A DNA stretch of 60,273 bases from an uncultured Clostridium sp. (GCA_964427175.1 CAYRTP010000002.1:12084-72356), one strand, 5' to 3'. Positions 32,457-51,938 are shown, numbered from the stretch's first letter. A program made the numbers and translations. The notes: generated by a model from the sequence alone, not told the origin.

Positions 32457-32485
32457 TTGACAAATCTGTCGGGTTGTGGCATAAT
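32457..32485 (+). promoter_or_regulatory. Consensus promoter driving a short plus-strand transcript into the shared terminator
   Basis: ttgaca, 17 nt, cataat. Confidence 0.65.
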
Positions 32486-32491
32486 ATAGAC

Positions 32492-32635
32492 GGTCTCTTG
32501 ACCCTTAGGGGTTACCTGTTCTGCGCTCGCAGAACAACGGTGGCGGCCTGCTTCCTCTGAAACGGTTGTAATCTGAACAATAACAAAAAGAAATAACCGC
32601 CTACAACCTCGCACGTTAAGACGGTTATTTTTAAC
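32492..32635 (+). ncRNA. Candidate ~145-nt transcript, convergent partner of sRNA copy B, carrying a decayed small-peptide frame
   Basis: Bounded by promoter 32457-32485 and hairpin aaataaccg/cggttattt + tttt. Frame TTG 32498 … TGA 32558-32560 … NLNNNKKK TAA 32594-32596. Confidence 0.4.
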
Positions 32636-32671
32636 TTGTAAGGGTAGCAAGCCGTCAATGGTAGCCCCTTC
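32584..32671 (-). ncRNA. Candidate small RNA, copy B (homolog of 51217-51301)
   Basis: Consensus promoter 32678-32706. 5' ACGAAGGGGCTACCATTGACGGCTTGCTACCC; terminator AAATAACCG…CGGTTATTT + CTTTTT. Confidence 0.55.
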
Positions 32672-32677
32672 GTATTT

Positions 32678-32706
32678 ATTATACCGCAAAGCGTTGGATT
32701 TGTCAA
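32678..32706 (-). promoter_or_regulatory. Promoter of sRNA copy B
   Basis: Minus strand ttgaca, 17 nt, tataat. Confidence 0.7.
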
Positions 32707-32835: not shown

Positions 32836-33510
32836 ATGACCGACGAACAGCTGAACCAAACCATCACAGAGGTCTCCAAGACCATCTTCAACTACTGTAT
32901 GGCCAAGACCCCCACCCGCGAGGAGGCGGAGGATCTGTCCCAGGATATCCTGTACGAGCTGGTGAAGTCTTCTAAGAATATCCGCGACGACAACGCCTTT
33001 TACGGCTTTATGTGGGCGGTGGCGGACAACGTCTATAAGCAGTGGTGCCGTAAGCGGGCCCGCAGACCGTACAGCGAGCTGACCGATGACATCCCCGCCG
33101 AGGAGGAGCCCCGCCCCTCGGAAGATGACGCAGACCACGATGTCTACCGTCTGCGCCGTGAGCTTGCCCTGCTTTCGGAGCGGCATCGCCGCGCCACGGT
33201 CCTGCATTATATCCACCGCAAGTCCTGCGCGGAGATTGCCGAGCAGTACCCCCGCGTGCGCGCCATGGCCGAGCGCTTCGTGGCCGATACCCTGAAGCCC
33301 ACCCTGGATCAGCTTCATACCACCCTCGTTACCGTTATGAGGGAGCACACCCCCAAGCACCTGCAGGACCAGGTCGAGCTCATCGCGCACATGGAAAAGC
33401 ACACCAGCGCGGTCTCACTCCCCGCCCTCAGCTTGATCGAGGAAGGAAAGCTCATCCCCAACTGGCACCCCGGAGAGATGCCCACCACCTATATCATTCT
33501 GAACGCATAA
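32836..33510 (+). CDS. Sigma-70 family (ECF-like) RNA polymerase sigma factor with atypical C-terminal part
   Basis: Region 2-like EEAEDLSQDILYEL…FYGFMWAVADNVY; region 4-like RRATVLHYIHRKSCAEIAEQ; ~70 extra C-terminal residues. Confidence 0.55.
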   Translation: MTDEQLNQTITEVSKTIFNYCMAKTPTREEAEDLSQDILYELVKSSKNIRDDNAFYGFMWAVADNVYKQWCRKRARRPYSELTDDIPAEEEPRPSEDDADHDVYRLRRELALLSERHRRATVLHYIHRKSCAEIAEQYPRVRAMAERFVADTLKPTLDQLHTTLVTVMREHTPKHLQDQVELIAHMEKHTSAVSLPALSLIEEGKLIPNWHPGEMPTTYIILNA

Positions 33511-42121: not shown

Positions 42122-43021
42122 ATGCCCCCTAAACTCATACCCGTTGAAGGTGCCGTCACCCCCGCTGAGGTTGCTCGGTTCGGCGAGATCGCCGACGAGG
42201 TGATCACCTCCCCCAAATACCGCCTGGCAGGGAAGTTAGCCTCGGTCGCCGATGACGGCTCACCCCATATCGGTACCCTGCGGGAAAAGCGGCTCCACGC
42301 CGCCATTAAGCTCTACCTCTGCCCCGACGAGACCTGCCACGAGCGTCCCGTGGCGGACCTGCTGGCCTCGGCCGACGGGGAAGCACCCGACAAAAAACGC
42401 CGTATGGTGGCGGATATCCTCACAGAAGGCCGCATTTTTGAGGTCCAGACAGGGGGATTCTTCCCGCTGAAGGAGAAAATTTCCTGGTATCTGACCCACA
42501 CCCCCTGCCGCATCACCGTGGTCCACCCCATCCCCGCGGTGCGCTACCTGTCCTGGATCAACCCCGAGGACGGTTCCATCATCAGCCGCCGTAAATCCCC
42601 CAAGCGAGGGCGGGTCCGCGACGTGGCCAAGGAGCTCTACTGGCTGTCCGAGTTCGTGGGTAACCCCCGATTCTCCCTGCGCCTGCTTCTCATCGAGCTG
42701 GAGGAGTACCGCATGGCCGACGGTTGGAGCCGTGACGGCAAGCGGGGTTCCAACCGCTACGAGCGGTTTCCCACCGCCCTTTTGGGGGACGTGACCCTGG
42801 AGACCCCTGCCGATTACGCCGCATACTTTCTGCCGTCTACCCTGGCGGACTTTCCCAACGAGGACGGGGAATACCCCCTGTTCACCGCCGCTGAGTACGC
42901 CAAGCTCACGGGCATCCGCGGTAAGGCCACCTACAGCACCATCCACCTGTTGGAGCACCTGGGACTCATTGCCGAGACTGAGGAGCGGGTGGGGAGGAGT
43001 AAGACCTATCGGAAGGTGTAA
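42122..43021 (+). CDS. Hypothetical protein with PD-(D/E)XK-nuclease-like core and C-terminal winged-helix-like tail
   Basis: RBS aaaggag. VADILTEGRIFEVQTG resembles a D…E.Q/K nuclease motif; tail TAAEYAKLTGIRGKATYSTIHLLEHLGLI. Confidence 0.4.
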   Translation: MPPKLIPVEGAVTPAEVARFGEIADEVITSPKYRLAGKLASVADDGSPHIGTLREKRLHAAIKLYLCPDETCHERPVADLLASADGEAPDKKRRMVADILTEGRIFEVQTGGFFPLKEKISWYLTHTPCRITVVHPIPAVRYLSWINPEDGSIISRRKSPKRGRVRDVAKELYWLSEFVGNPRFSLRLLLIELEEYRMADGWSRDGKRGSNRYERFPTALLGDVTLETPADYAAYFLPSTLADFPNEDGEYPLFTAAEYAKLTGIRGKATYSTIHLLEHLGLIAETEERVGRSKTYRKV

Positions 43022-43023
43022 AA

Positions 43024-43068
43024 ACACCCGCATTTCAGAAAATCCCTGAAATGCGGGTGTTCTTTTTT
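43024..43068. terminator. Bidirectional terminator between convergent genes
   Basis: acacccgcatttcag/ctgaaatgcgggtgt 15-bp stem, tctttttt after and aaaa before. Confidence 0.85.
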
Positions 43069-45782: not shown

Positions 45783-45884
45783 AGGCAAGCCCTCCTTGGT
45801 AAGAAATCATGGGTTTTTTCTATTATAACATTATAGTCAACTATAAAGTCAAGCCCCTTTCTTGAAATTTCTTCAAAAAATTTT

Positions 45885-50005: not shown

Positions 50006-50479
50006 TCAATCATTGTCCTGCTCCATGGCGCAGTCGATGGCCAGGACCAGGGCGAGGGCTTGGATCTCGTCGGCGGGGTCGCGGATGTCCAGGGCGTAGC
50101 AGTCCCCCCAGGTGAACCATTCCTTGGCGATGGTGACGATGGGCTCCCCGCCGCGGTAGACGGTGTAATCGTGGGACCAGAACTCCCCTTCCACGTCCCA
50201 ATCGGCCCCCTCCACGGTGTAGCGGGGGCGGAAGAAGGAGAACTCGCGGACCACCTCACCGACCAGCTGACCGTAGGCGTAGACCTCGTAGCGGGGCTTG
50301 AAGGTGAAGATCTGTTGCTCGATGTAGGCCACCTCCCGCCCGTCGGGGGTGCAGACGTGGAGCTTCTTGCCCCAGGAGAACAGCTCGCCCTCCACGTAGT
50401 AGCGGTCATTGCCCGCCTCGTCCTTGACCGTAAAGCGGTCGTTCCAGGTGAAGATCTTTTCTTCAATCAGCAATTTCAT
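50006..50479 (-). CDS. LURP-one-related (DUF567, tubby C-terminal-like) family protein
   Basis: IFTWNDRFTVKDEAGNDRYYVEGELFSWGKKLHV…FTFKPRYEVY…WSHDYTVY repeat pattern typical of DUF567. Confidence 0.7.
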   Translation of the reverse strand: MKLLIEEKIFTWNDRFTVKDEAGNDRYYVEGELFSWGKKLHVCTPDGREVAYIEQQIFTFKPRYEVYAYGQLVGEVVREFSFFRPRYTVEGADWDVEGEFWSHDYTVYRGGEPIVTIAKEWFTWGDCYALDIRDPADEIQALALVLAIDCAMEQDND

Positions 50480-50794
50480 AGAATATAATCATCCTTTCCT
50501 AAAATATCTTGTTTAATTGTCTACATTATAACATACAATCGAATGATTGTCAATAGGTTTTCAAGGAATATGTTAAAAAATCTACAATTTTCTTGCCTGA
50601 ATGTAAACCAAGCGACTATTTAAATGCCTGAATGGGAAAAAAGAGATCGGGAAAAGAGATTTTACGTTGTTCGGTAGACAATTATAACTCTTAAAATCTA
50701 AGAAGTCAATATGATTTTTCAAAATTTTCCGAATTTTTAAGAAATTTGTGCAATATATCTTACAATATAAGAAAAAAGATGCGAGGTATTGTAC

Positions 50795-51130
50795 ATGGAT
50801 CAAATTCCGAATCTTAGTCAAATACTGAAAAACACCCGCGAGGATCTTGATCTCACGCAACTGAAGGTAATGGAACTGACGGGAATTAACCATAAAACCT
50901 TGTCGGGCTATGAAAACGGTGTGGCTGAGCCTGATTTGCAGGCACTGGCGACCTTGTGTCGCCTGTATAAGCTCTCCATGGATGTGGTCCTTGGCCTCAA
51001 GCCTACTCCGGATGCGCTACTGTTAAGCCGCCGAGAAAAGGATTTGGTTGAGCTATACCGGCGGCTTCCCTCGGATAGCCAGCGTGCCTTGGTGACTCTT
51101 TTAAGTGGCCTGATTGAGCGGAACTCATAA
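50795..51130 (+). CDS. XRE-family HTH transcriptional regulator
   Basis: LKNTREDLDLTQLKVMELTGINHKTLSGYENGVAEPD. Confidence 0.8.
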   Translation: MDQIPNLSQILKNTREDLDLTQLKVMELTGINHKTLSGYENGVAEPDLQALATLCRLYKLSMDVVLGLKPTPDALLLSRREKDLVELYRRLPSDSQRALVTLLSGLIERNS

Positions 51131-51181
51131 GCATATGTAAATAAAAAATCCGCCCGAGGGCGGAAAAAATGCGAAAAGGTG

Positions 51182-51210
51182 TTGACAAAACCGCGTCGGC
51201 GGTGTATCAT
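51182..51210 (+). promoter_or_regulatory. Promoter of sRNA copy A
   Basis: ttgaca, 17 nt, tatcat. Confidence 0.65.
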
Positions 51211-51216
51211 AAAAAC

Positions 51217-51301
51217 GTAGGGGCTGCCGGTGACGGTTGCTTCCTCGTAATACGATTAAGATAACCGTTTTGTTTGGAAGACTGGGCGGTTATCTTTTTT
51301 T
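51217..51301 (+). ncRNA. Candidate small RNA, copy A (homolog of 32584-32671)
   Basis: 5' ACGTAGGGGCTGCCGGTGACGGTTGCTTCC; terminator AGATAACCG…CGGTTATCT + TTTTTT. Confidence 0.55.
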
Positions 51302-51364
51302 ACTGTTCAAGTAAGACATGATGACGAATGCCAATGTAACAAGGTCGATCAAGAGATAGATCAA
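51290..51364 (-). CDS. Candidate 24-codon hydrophobic/basic peptide (type I toxin-like), convergent with sRNA copy A
   Basis: TTG start; translation LIYLLIDLVTLAFVIMSYLNSKKR; stop inside the shared terminator stem. SD weak or ambiguous and no clear promoter. Confidence 0.35.
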   Translation of the reverse strand: MIYLLIDLVTLAFVIMSYLNSKKR

Positions 51365-51414
51365 TTCGCCTTTTCCACTCCGAAAAATTTTTTCAAAAAA
51401 ATTTGAAAAACCCC

Positions 51415-51443
51415 TTGACAAATCCGCCGACATGATGTATAAT
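51415..51443 (+). promoter_or_regulatory. Promoter of Rrf2-rubrerythrin-rubredoxin cluster
   Basis: ttgaca, 17 nt, tataat; inverted repeat TTTCAAA-N4-TTTGAAA just upstream (51391-51408). Confidence 0.7.
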
Positions 51444-51485
51444 TAAATCACACCAAAACAGTGTCATTTGAGGAGGCAACCAAAG

Positions 51486-51938
51486 ATGAAGATCACACAG
51501 GAAGCGGATTACGCCCTGCGTATGATGTGCCTTCTGGCGAAGCAGTCCGCCGCGGGAGTTCCCACCGTGGGCGCGTCGGTTTTAGCCGAGGGGGTGGCCG
51601 TCCCCAGCCGATTCGGGCTGAAGATCCTCCACAAGCTCTCCCAGTCGGGCCTGGTCAAGACCAGCCGAGGGGCGACAGGTGGTTACAGCCTGAACTCCGA
51701 CCCCGCAACCATAACGGTGCGGCAGGTCATTGAGGCCATCGACGGACCCATCGAGATCAATCGATGCCTGTCCAAGACCCACATCTGTCTCAATAATCCC
51801 AACAAGGACTGCTGTCGCTTGCACCACGTCTTCGAGGAGCTCAATCGGATGCTCACCGAACGGCTGGACCGCCTGACCGTGTCCATGGTGGTGGATGAAG
51901 GGATCGGAATGGGTGACCTCATACGCACGATCGTCTAA
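51486..51938 (+). CDS. Rrf2 family transcriptional regulator
   Basis: [19 protein letters not shown]…[14 protein letters not shown]; Cys cluster [17 protein letters not shown]. Confidence 0.85.

What the first reader, a model, noticed from the sequence alone, without database searches (positions are those of the whole stretch)
51182..51443. Convergent small-transcript module A: strong-promoter sRNA overlapping the 3' end of a 24-codon hydrophobic/basic peptide ORF (type I TA-like)
On the plus strand, ttgaca-17-tatcat is followed by an ~85-nt transcript ending in the terminator AGATAACCG…CGGTTATCT+T6 (51259-51301). On the minus strand an ORF (51364 to 51290, TTG start) encodes LIYLLIDLVTLAFVIMSYLNSKKR, one hydrophobic helix plus a basic tail. 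Its stop codon lies inside the same terminator stem, so the two RNAs would be complementary at their 3' ends. This is the layout of 3'-overlapping type I toxin-antitoxin pairs such as B. subtilis bsrG/SR4 or txpA/RatA. Caveats: the peptide has only a weak or ambiguous SD (GGAG 13 nt upstream, AAGG 4 nt upstream), a non-ATG start, and no convincing promoter that I can see.
Basis: partly seen in the sequence, partly recalled or inferred. Interest (0 to 1): 0.65.

Follow-up and report, generated by a model that had tools for sequence, protein, structure and literature searches.

The report
Decayed toxin-antitoxin locus, antisense RNA intact
This is the remnant of a small "type I" toxin-antitoxin module of a family common in gut Clostridia: the gene for the roughly 85-nt antisense RNA looks fully intact, but the toxin gene has lost its promoter, leader, ribosome-binding site and first seven codons.

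Summary
A near-consensus promoter (51182-51210) precedes an ~85-nt RNA (51217-51301) made of a 5' hairpin and an intrinsic terminator. The stop codon of a minus-strand hydrophobic/basic ORF lies in the terminator stem.

Comparison with about 75 related loci shows a conserved module:
- a 25-33-aa peptide ending in (N)KKR, with a strong Shine-Dalgarno (SD) sequence
- its own consensus promoter and a 60-230-nt leader that sequesters the SD
- a convergent ~85-nt sRNA with a consensus promoter
- one shared terminator holding the stop codon

The peptides are under purifying selection. They link to Pfam Hol_Tox, the TxpA/BsrG family, directly for one subfamily and by profile comparison for the window's subfamily. 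The sRNA is not in Rfam, and its 5' hairpin shows compensatory changes.

The window copy is an outlier. Homology to intact modules stops at codon 8, and about 205-280 nt are missing: toxin promoter, leader, SD, ATG and codons 1-7.

A second relic lies at 32457-32706, with its toxin ORF almost wholly deleted and its sRNA retained.

Verdict: a new member of a known kind of system, locally a disarmed relic. Expression and toxicity are untested.

The parts
51182..51210 (+). Promoter of the antisense sRNA (TTGACA-17-TATCAT).
   Evidence: It matches 11 of 12 consensus positions. The same position holds an 11-12/12 promoter in about 50 homologous modules. The TATCAT -10 variant also occurs in intact modules L106, L121, L131 and L138.
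51217..51301 (+). sRNA of about 85 nt, the putative antitoxin. It has a 5' hairpin (51220-51243) with a GUGA loop, a variable linker, and a terminator hairpin (51258-51296) followed by U7.
   Evidence: Fold: -34.3 kcal/mol, z = -4.25. The covariance model R1 scores it at 89.9 bits, although this sequence was in the seed. All 9 pairs of the 5' hairpin show changes on both sides across 61 sequences, 90% of cells are paired, and 0 of 500 shuffles reach the observed values. There is no Rfam match.
51290..51367 (-). 5'-truncated remnant of the toxin gene: codons E8-R32 plus the stop codon of a 32-aa Hol_Tox/TxpA-like peptide.
   Evidence: tblastn with the intact 32-aa homologue aligns residues 8-32 only. 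DNA homology to all intact modules ends at 51363-51369. Intact homologues P0001, P0002, P0004 and P0005 are 32 aa and start MD[FY]VTW. There is no SD, ATG or promoter here, whereas 60 intact homologues have them.
51368..51382 (.). Deletion junction. Homology to the toxin gene ends to the left, and homology to the conserved region upstream of the Rrf2 promoter resumes to the right.
   Evidence: Homology to the Rrf2-upstream region of L001-L016 starts at 51379-51384. The same interval is 216, 293 and 223 nt long in L008, L010 and L011, where it holds the toxin start, SD, leader and promoter.
51139..51164 (-). Second terminator on the toxin strand, just downstream of the sRNA promoter: stem 51164..51149, then TTTTTTATTT.
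   Evidence: Found by the terminator scan. It has no U-tail on the + strand, so it cannot serve the upstream XRE gene. An equivalent hairpin plus T-run is present in every member of the window's subfamily and in 24 of 48 modules overall.

Best explanation
The locus is a decayed copy of a portable type I toxin-antitoxin-like module.

In intact copies, one strand carries a consensus promoter and a 60-230-nt leader. A pyrimidine stretch in the leader (CCUUCCCU) pairs with the strong SD. A 25-33-aa peptide follows, with one hydrophobic helix and an (N)KKR tail. The other strand carries a consensus promoter and an ~85-nt sRNA. The two transcripts converge on one terminator hairpin that contains the toxin's stop codon.

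The RNAs are therefore perfectly complementary over at least the ~40-nt terminator. Where the toxin transcript reads on to a second terminator behind the sRNA promoter, they are complementary over the whole sRNA.

By analogy with txpA/RatA and bsrG/SR4, the sRNA would pair with the 3' end of the toxin mRNA, starting at the complementary terminator loops. This would trigger RNase III-dependent decay and perhaps reinforce SD sequestration. This step is inferred, not shown.

In this window, a deletion of about 205-280 nt removed the toxin promoter, leader, SD, start codon and codons 1-7. What remains is an apparently intact, strongly promoted sRNA gene and a promoterless 25-codon toxin remnant. 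The sRNA is thus an orphan. It is either a recent leftover or is kept because it can neutralise related toxin mRNAs made elsewhere.
For: Shown by tools:
1. Three orthologous Rrf2 loci (L008, L010, L011) carry the same sRNA plus a full 32-aa ORF, with GGAGGGAGGTGATGGA-ATG and a TTGACA-17-TATTAT/TATAAT promoter. The window lacks exactly that interval.
2. Protein search found 31-32-aa relatives (P0001, P0002, P0004-P0006) in other genomic contexts.
3. Scans with the terminator pattern found 69 metagenome loci and 2 related viral-contig loci. About 55 carry the complete architecture: a peptide with an SD, a toxin promoter 62-230 nt upstream, and a convergent 82-96-nt sRNA with a 12/12 promoter.
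4. Of 76 distinct loci with the sRNA, 60 have an intact toxin ORF. The window is among the exceptions.
5. dN/dS is 0.04-0.34 over codons 2-24, with synonymous sites near saturation.
6. Nine of 12 peptides of a sister subfamily hit Pfam Hol_Tox (best E = 1.7e-6). That subfamily matches the window's subfamily by hhalign at 96.4% probability, E = 1.3e-9. TxpA and BsrG hit the same Pfam family.
7. The sRNA 5' hairpin is supported by covariation.
8. The SD is sequestered in the consensus fold of the leader.
9. All DNA homology to intact modules stops at 51363-51369.
10. L007 keeps only the toxin -35 remnant, and L089 has an independent 5' deletion, so decay is recurrent.

From the literature: RatA and txpA overlap at their 3' ends and are degraded via RNase III (PMC3531473). 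The SR4 terminator loop makes the first contact with bsrG mRNA, and SR4 has a dual action (PMC3834814).
Against: No expression data could be obtained for either strand.

No member of this Clostridial family has been tested for toxicity or for neutralisation by the sRNA.

The window-type peptide does not itself reach any Pfam or NCBIfam threshold. The link to Hol_Tox is transitive and rests on short hydrophobic sequences, which can inflate profile scores.

The 25 remaining codons show almost no non-synonymous change (pN 0.03-0.10 against pS 0.45-0.92 when compared with subfamily members L081, L087, L088, L090 and L008). The truncation is therefore either recent, or the remnant is still constrained.

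The remnant stays in frame with an upstream ATG (a 47-aa ORF). A second, independent truncation (L089) ends within 1-3 nt of the same point.

Family members were retrieved with the terminator sequence as bait, so the invariance of the terminator stem is partly by construction.
Confidence: 0.75

Rival explanations
1. The window copy is a working type I toxin-antitoxin pair. A 24-aa peptide (TTG 51364) or a 47-aa peptide (ATG 51433) is made from a minus-strand transcript and held in check by the convergent sRNA.
For: The remnant keeps the whole hydrophobic helix and the KKR tail, with hardly any non-synonymous change. The ORF is open to an ATG at 51433. A weak promoter-like site (ATGACA-17-AATTAT, 9/12) sits at 51467..51439, which would place a transcription start near that ATG. 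The minus-strand terminator at 51164..51149 is intact. L089 shows a truncation at almost the same codon, fused to a promoter in leaderless geometry.
Against: All 60 intact homologues found with the sRNA have a strong SD (mostly GGAGGTGA) with an ATG, GTG or TTG start, and nearly all have a 10-12/12 promoter. The window has none of these. The 9/12 site lies inside the conserved Rrf2 leader and operator and is not a promoter in relatives. The 47-aa product is in no protein collection, and its N-terminal 22 residues have no homologue.
Confidence: 0.1
2. The family is not a toxin-antitoxin system. The peptide would be a benign small membrane protein with some other role, for example a regulator like ComI. 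The antisense RNA would simply tune its level. The window copy would then be a pseudogene of that.
For: Toxicity has not been tested for any member. Fozo et al. (PMC2887945) found that YhzE-2, a predicted type I toxin with an antisense RNA, was not toxic. Weak NCBIfam similarity goes to both ComI and PepG1.
Against: The peptides link to the experimentally toxic TxpA/BsrG family. The architecture matches type I toxins point by point: a sequestered SD, a long structured leader, a stronger or consensus antisense promoter, and 3' overlap. The module occurs in unrelated genomic contexts, and once sits between an integrase and a holin on a 65-kb viral contig. The peptide gene is lost recurrently while the RNA is kept.
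Confidence: 0.12
3. The + strand RNA is a cis-acting element of a neighbouring gene rather than an independent sRNA. It would be either a leader or attenuator of the Rrf2-rubrerythrin operon, or the 3' UTR and terminator of the upstream XRE gene.
For: It lies between the two genes on their strand. The XRE gene has no terminator of its own on the + strand, so its transcript may end at 51301.
Against: It has its own 11/12 promoter and an efficient terminator about 185 nt before the Rrf2 start. Rrf2 has a perfect 12/12 promoter downstream of that terminator. The Rrf2 promoter region is conserved in relatives L001-L016, 13 of which lack the sRNA. The sRNA travels with the peptide gene into unrelated contexts, such as ECF sigma, DUF4304 and prophage. 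There is no riboswitch or leader match in Rfam.
Confidence: 0.03

Closest known systems
bsrG/SR4 of Bacillus subtilis prophage SPbeta (type I toxin-antitoxin)
   Same: Both have a short hydrophobic peptide with a basic tail; BsrG is 38 aa and hits Pfam Hol_Tox (sequence recalled from memory). The antisense RNA is convergent and complementary to the 3' end of the toxin mRNA. The antitoxin promoter is the stronger one. The SD lies in a local helix. The terminator loop of the antitoxin is the expected first contact (PMC3834814). Family leaders here also sequester the SD.
   Different: SR4 is about 180 nt, and bsrG mRNA about 294 nt. Here the sRNA is about 85 nt, and the toxin stop codon lies inside the shared terminator stem. 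There is no detectable sequence similarity between the RNAs and no Rfam match. The window copy lacks the 5' half of the toxin gene.
txpA/RatA of the B. subtilis skin element and Enterococcus faecalis
   Same: TxpA is the founding member of the Hol_Tox/'holin-like toxin' family (PMC2887945). [quoted passage not shown] The location is often a prophage; compare L096.
   Different: TxpA is 59 aa and the predicted overlap is about 120 nt (PMC3531473). The peptides here are 25-33 aa. The window-type subfamily does not reach the Pfam threshold directly.
par (fst/RNA II) of Enterococcus plasmid pAD1
   Same: Both have convergent transcripts that share one terminator. In most intact relatives the hairpin has a U-run on both strands. 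RNA II pairs at the 3' end and also at the 5' end, near the start of translation (PMC3834814, introduction). Here the sRNA 3' arm is anti-SD-like, and its pairing with the cognate SD is slightly better than with non-cognate SDs (-14.9 against -13.9 kcal/mol, permutation p = 2e-4, not corrected for relatedness).
   Different: The toxin family is different, with no Fst match. No direct-repeat complementarity was found: duplex energies of the sRNA 5' part against the leader do not beat shuffles.
Clostridioides difficile type I modules (CD2517.1/RCd8 and others)
   Same: Both are from Clostridia and have convergent overlapping toxin and antitoxin genes, a hydrophobic peptide with a charged C-terminus, and a frequent prophage location (PMC6563280).
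   Different: The C. difficile toxins are 34-59 aa and have no sequence homology to known families (PMC6563280). There is no similarity to the peptides or the sRNA here.

Membership tests
Type I toxin-antitoxin system (generic) | A small (under about 60 aa) hydrophobic peptide with a transmembrane helix and a charged C-terminus. | tested here: met
   Intact relatives are 25-33 aa with one hydrophobic stretch and an (N)KKR end. They are under purifying selection. The window keeps only residues 8-32.
Type I toxin-antitoxin system (generic) | An antisense RNA gene with its own promoter that overlaps the toxin transcript. | tested here: met
   Met at the sequence level only. There is an 11/12 promoter plus a terminator in the window. 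A 12/12 promoter and the same RNA are found in about 50 loci. The hairpin shows covariation. Transcription itself was not observed.
Type I toxin-antitoxin system (generic) | The peptide is toxic when overproduced, and the RNA neutralises it. | not testable with these tools
Type I toxin-antitoxin system (generic) | An expressible toxin gene (promoter, ribosome-binding site and start codon) at this locus. | tested here: not met
   Homology ends at codon 8, and the interval holding the promoter, leader, SD and ATG is missing. There is only a weak AAGG/GGAG and a TTG start.
TxpA/BsrG family (Pfam PF16935 Hol_Tox) | The peptide scores above the Pfam gathering threshold of 23.3 bits. | tested here: inconclusive
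   The window-type peptides have no hit. In the sister subfamily from the same module family, 9 of 12 members hit at E <= 0.01; one member checked individually scored 26.9 bits. hhalign between the two subfamilies gives 96.4% probability, E = 1.3e-9. TxpA and BsrG score 31.3 and 34.5 bits.
TxpA/BsrG family (Pfam PF16935 Hol_Tox) | The antitoxin RNA is convergent and complementary to the 3' end of the toxin mRNA. | tested here: met
   The stop codon lies inside the sRNA terminator stem, and a second toxin-strand terminator lies beyond the sRNA promoter.
Fst/par family | An Fst-type peptide, and 5' repeats that give a second region of complementarity over the start of translation. | tested here: not met
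   There is no Fst match in Pfam or NCBIfam. Duplexes of the sRNA 5' part with the leader are no better than shuffles. Only a modest excess of cognate anti-SD/SD pairing was seen.
Any described RNA family (Rfam 15, including known antitoxin sRNAs) | A match at the family's gathering score. | tested here: not met
   There were no matches in the whole window at gathering thresholds. Only two chance-level matches (E = 0.27 and 1.1) were found in 50900-51700.

The most novel reading that the evidence does not exclude
These modules form a widespread type I toxin-antitoxin family of gut and rumen Clostridia that I could not find described. It has its own structured antitoxin sRNA of about 85 nt, which is absent from Rfam. 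The sRNA's 5' hairpin repeats an element of the toxin leader (GUAGGAGC...CGGUUGCUUCCUC). Its terminator, with an almost invariant stem, holds the toxin's stop codon. About one locus in eight has lost the toxin but kept a consensus-promoter sRNA, including both copies in this window. This would mean that orphan antitoxin RNAs are retained by selection, either as immunity against related toxins brought in by prophages (anti-addiction) or as recruited trans-acting regulators.
Probability: 0.2. Interest if true: 0.6.

Novelty: new member of a known kind. Interest (0 to 1): 0.42.

Why it matters
Type I toxin-antitoxin systems are hard to find and are almost uncharted in commensal Clostridia. A 2019 review lists only C. 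difficile's own families and a TxpA-like hit in C. bolteae (PMC6563280).

This locus led to about 60 intact modules in animal- and human-gut metagenomes. They have a clear, compact architecture and an sRNA that could become a new RNA family.

For annotating this genome, the practical result is different. The two loci in the window (51139-51382 and 32457-32706) should be labelled as sRNA genes with toxin pseudogenes, not as active toxin genes.

The recurrent pattern of 'toxin lost, antisense RNA kept' is a testable example of how such modules decay or are domesticated.

Tried and rejected
- Rfam: nothing at gathering thresholds for the whole window, and nothing at E <= 10 around the locus beyond two chance-level matches.
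- tRNA/tmRNA scan: none found.
- An exact look-up of the 47-aa ORF found it on no record.
- Self-BLAST of the window found no second copy at the DNA or peptide level. Module B was found only later, with the covariance model.
- RNAalifold on a plain MAFFT alignment recovered only the terminator, because the 5' hairpin was misaligned. A hand-checked seed and a covariance model were needed.
- RNAduplex of the sRNA 5' part against the toxin leader gave z-scores around 0, so there is no support for an Fst-like second pairing region.
- A third covariance-model hit at 42989-43068 (20 bits) is an ordinary gene terminator.
- blastn of an intact module against cultured plasmids and phages found no match.
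- The 9/12 minus-strand promoter-like site at 51467..51439 was rejected as the toxin promoter, because it lies in the conserved Rrf2 leader.

Full report
**1. The observation**

- TTGACA-17-TATCAT lies at 51182-51210 and matches 11 of 12 consensus positions. The surrounding 3.5 kb holds 11 promoter-like sites, against 2.0 +/- 1.4 in shuffles.
- The downstream 91 nt fold into a 5' hairpin and a long terminator hairpin (-34.3 kcal/mol, z = -4.25).
- The terminator arms are 51258-51267 and 51287-51296, followed by T7.
- On the minus strand, the ORF 51364..51290 (LIYLLIDLVTLAFVIMSYLNSKKR) has its TAA inside the 3' arm of that stem.

- The ORF stays open upstream to an ATG at 51433, giving 47 aa.
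- A hairpin at 51164..51149 has its T-run on the minus strand only. It is therefore a terminator for a minus-strand transcript that would cover the whole sRNA gene.

Rfam has no match.

**2. Relatives show the complete module**

The downstream gene (51486-51938) encodes an Rrf2-family regulator. Its orthologues in 80 genomes place the window among uncultured Oscillospiraceae/Clostridia from animal guts.

The Rrf2 promoter region is conserved in L001-L016. The sRNA and ORF region is present only in L008, L010 and L011.

In those three loci the minus-strand ORF is 32 aa, for example MDFVTWSELIYLLIELITLAFVILSYLNSKKR. It is preceded by GGAGGGAGGTGATGGA-ATG, a leader of about 130-200 nt, and a TTGACA-17-TATTAT/TATAAT promoter.

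The interval holding these parts is 216-293 nt long in those loci and about 10-15 nt long in the window.

**3. The family**

A protein search with the 47-aa window ORF found six proteins. Five are 31-32 aa and begin MD[FY]VTW or MYVTW.

Their contigs place the module in unrelated contexts: beside an ECF sigma operon and an AP-endonuclease-fold gene, or beside a DUF4304 gene.

The terminator with its embedded stop codon was then used as a pattern.
- Two related loci were found on viral contigs.
- Sixty-nine loci were found in metagenomes from rumen, human gut and other sources.

The peptides are very diverse, for example MSVATVVAILNLVINIVRLVLDICNKKR, MYITWEALFLFCTLILAIISLVIEIYNKKR and MDEVSVLYLIVILYLIKEIIRISNKKR. 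The architecture, however, is constant:
- a strong SD
- a 10-12/12 promoter 62-230 nt upstream of the start codon
- a convergent 82-96-nt RNA with a perfect TTGACA-17-TATAAT promoter

The coding signal is clear. Over codons 2-24, which lie outside the overlap with the short sRNA, synonymous sites are near saturation (pS 0.5-0.9) while pN is 0.05-0.3. This gives dN/dS of 0.04-0.34.

**4. The sRNA is a structured, conserved RNA**

All 53 distinct sRNAs fold a 5' hairpin with the same geometry:
- a purine-rich 5' arm
- an inner CCG/CGG stem with a 4-5-nt loop
- a pyrimidine-rich 3' arm of the GCUUCCUC type

A covariance model built from 12 hand-checked sequences finds the RNA in the loci.

On the resulting 61-sequence alignment, all 9 pairs of the 5' hairpin have changes on both sides and 90% of cells are paired. 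No shuffle of 500 reaches the observed values, and slid controls fall to 28-57% paired. One caveat applies: the alignment was fitted to the model.

The terminator stem is invariant, but it was the search bait.

**5. Link to known toxins**

The window-type peptide hits nothing in Pfam or NCBIfam.

Twelve of 47 family peptides hit Pfam PF16935 Hol_Tox, with a best E-value of 1.7e-6. In the MYITWE subfamily, 9 of 12 do.

hhalign of the window's subfamily against that subfamily gives 96.4% probability, E = 1.3e-9 over 31 columns.

Membership of the window's subfamily, though, rests on a transitive link.

**6. How it probably works (inferred)**

In the window's subfamily the consensus fold of the leader has three hairpins. 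The last one pairs CCUUCCCU with the SD GGGGGAGG.

The two RNAs share the terminator. In most intact relatives the hairpin has a U-run on both strands. Half of all modules, and all of the window's subfamily, have a second toxin-strand terminator behind the sRNA promoter.

Complementarity therefore ranges from about 40 nt to the full sRNA.

By analogy with two studied systems, the sRNA should pair at the 3' end and promote decay.
- RatA/txpA: 3' overlap and RNase III (PMC3531473).
- SR4/bsrG: the terminator loop makes the first contact, and both decay and translation are affected (PMC3834814).

A second contact at the SD is possible but weakly supported.
- The sRNA 3' arm is anti-SD-like.
- Cognate arm/SD duplexes are slightly more stable than non-cognate ones (-14.9 against -13.9 kcal/mol, permutation p = 2e-4, uncorrected for relatedness).
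- Whole 5'-part duplexes do not beat shuffles.

One more feature was seen by eye in the alignments and not scored. The sRNA 5' hairpin resembles a segment of the toxin leader in the same sense (CGUAGG...GGUGGCGGUUGCUUCCUC).

**7. The window copy is a relic**

Every alignment of the window to an intact module ends at 51363-51369, which is codon 8. To the right, homology to the Rrf2 upstream region starts at 51379-51384.

The toxin promoter, leader, SD, ATG and codons 1-7 are therefore gone.

The sRNA gene is complete. Its promoter is 11/12, and the same TATCAT -10 variant occurs in intact modules. All structural features are present.

Decay is recurrent.
- L007 keeps only the toxin -35 region.
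- L089 has an independent 5' deletion plus a frameshift.
- Of 76 distinct sRNA loci, 60 have an intact toxin ORF.
- About 8 have lost the toxin but keep a 10-12/12 sRNA promoter.

Points against a long-dead relic:
- The 25 remaining codons show pN of 0.03-0.10 against pS of 0.45-0.92 relative to subfamily members L081, L087, L088, L090 and L008.
- The frame is open to an upstream ATG.
- L089's deletion ends within 1-3 nt of the window's.

I could not decide between a recent deletion and a still-used 24-aa core. The absence of any SD, ATG or promoter makes expression unlikely.

**8. Second copy in the window**

The covariance model finds a second sRNA at 32671..32585 on the minus strand (44.6 bits, E about 1e-9). 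It has a perfect promoter at 32706..32678.

On the + strand, a TTGACA-17-CATAAT promoter (32457-32485) and the first part of a toxin-type leader (GGUGGCGGCCUGCUUCCUCUG) run straight into ...NLNNNKKK-TAA. The toxin ORF has been deleted internally.

Both modules in this 60-kb window are thus disarmed, with the RNA retained.

**9. Novelty and score**

The kind of system is known: a type I toxin-antitoxin of the TxpA/BsrG type with a 3'-overlapping antisense RNA.

The Clostridial family and its sRNA do not appear in Rfam or in the reviews I read (PMC6563280, PMC2887945).

The subfamily is small among called proteins, with 19 representative clusters in 1.84 billion.

The local finding is a pseudogenised module. 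I rate it a new member of a known kind, of moderate interest.

Noticed in passing
window 32457-32706: A second, paralogous relic module ('module B'). The sRNA is on the minus strand (32671..32585; 44.6 bits with model R1) with a perfect TTGACA-17-TATAAT promoter (32706..32678). On the + strand there is a toxin-type promoter (32457-32485) and a partial leader, but the toxin ORF is deleted down to its last codons (...NLNNNKKK*, stop at 32594-32596). It lies between a permease gene and an ECF-type sigma factor gene (32836-33510).
   Followed up: partly
window 51379-51485, and L001-L016 at about 2390-2500: The Rrf2 gene has a perfect 12/12 promoter (51415-51443). It sits in a block conserved across at least 16 related genomes. 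The block contains the repeated motif CACCAAAAC(G/A)GTG and its near-palindromes around the -10 element and the leader. This is probably the Rrf2 autoregulatory operator. Rubrerythrin and rubredoxin genes follow downstream.
   Followed up: no
window 50500-50790: The intergenic region between the LURP-one-related gene (50006-50479, minus strand) and the XRE-type HTH gene (50795-51130) is AT-rich. It is packed with promoter-like sites, including a 12/12 site with an extended TG at 50553..50525, and with several long imperfect inverted repeats (I1-I3, 21-27 nt).
   Followed up: no
L089 1100-1300: This is an independent toxin truncation in a locus otherwise orthologous to the intact L081 and L088. 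The toxin -10 element is fused by 7 nt to the internal ATG (codon 9), which is the geometry of a leaderless mRNA. One extra A in the A-run frameshifts the KKR tail. The inner end point is within 1-3 nt of the window's.
   Followed up: partly
L096 2750-3290 (IMGVR_UViG_3300029906_000187, 65.5 kb): An intact family member (MAYVTWNDLLQVVTLAFVILSCYINSKKR plus its sRNA) lies between a phage-type integrase and a phage holin on a predicted viral contig. At least some modules therefore ride on prophages.
   Followed up: partly
window 51385-51412, and similar short matches near 45865, 20950, 32735 and 53657: An A/T-rich motif of the type GAAAAATTTTTTCAAAAAAATTTGAAAAA precedes the -35 of strong promoters and recurs in the window. 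It may be an UP-element-like signature of this organism's strong promoters. The matches are short and of low complexity.
   Followed up: no
toxin leaders of L081, L113, L123, L138 and others (alignment A2, columns ~390-520): The toxin 5' leader carries, in the same sense, a near copy of the sRNA 5' hairpin (CGUAGGAG...GGUGGCGGUUGCUUCCUC). This suggests that the sRNA arose by inverted duplication of part of the leader, or that both bind a common partner. It was not tested statistically.
   Followed up: no
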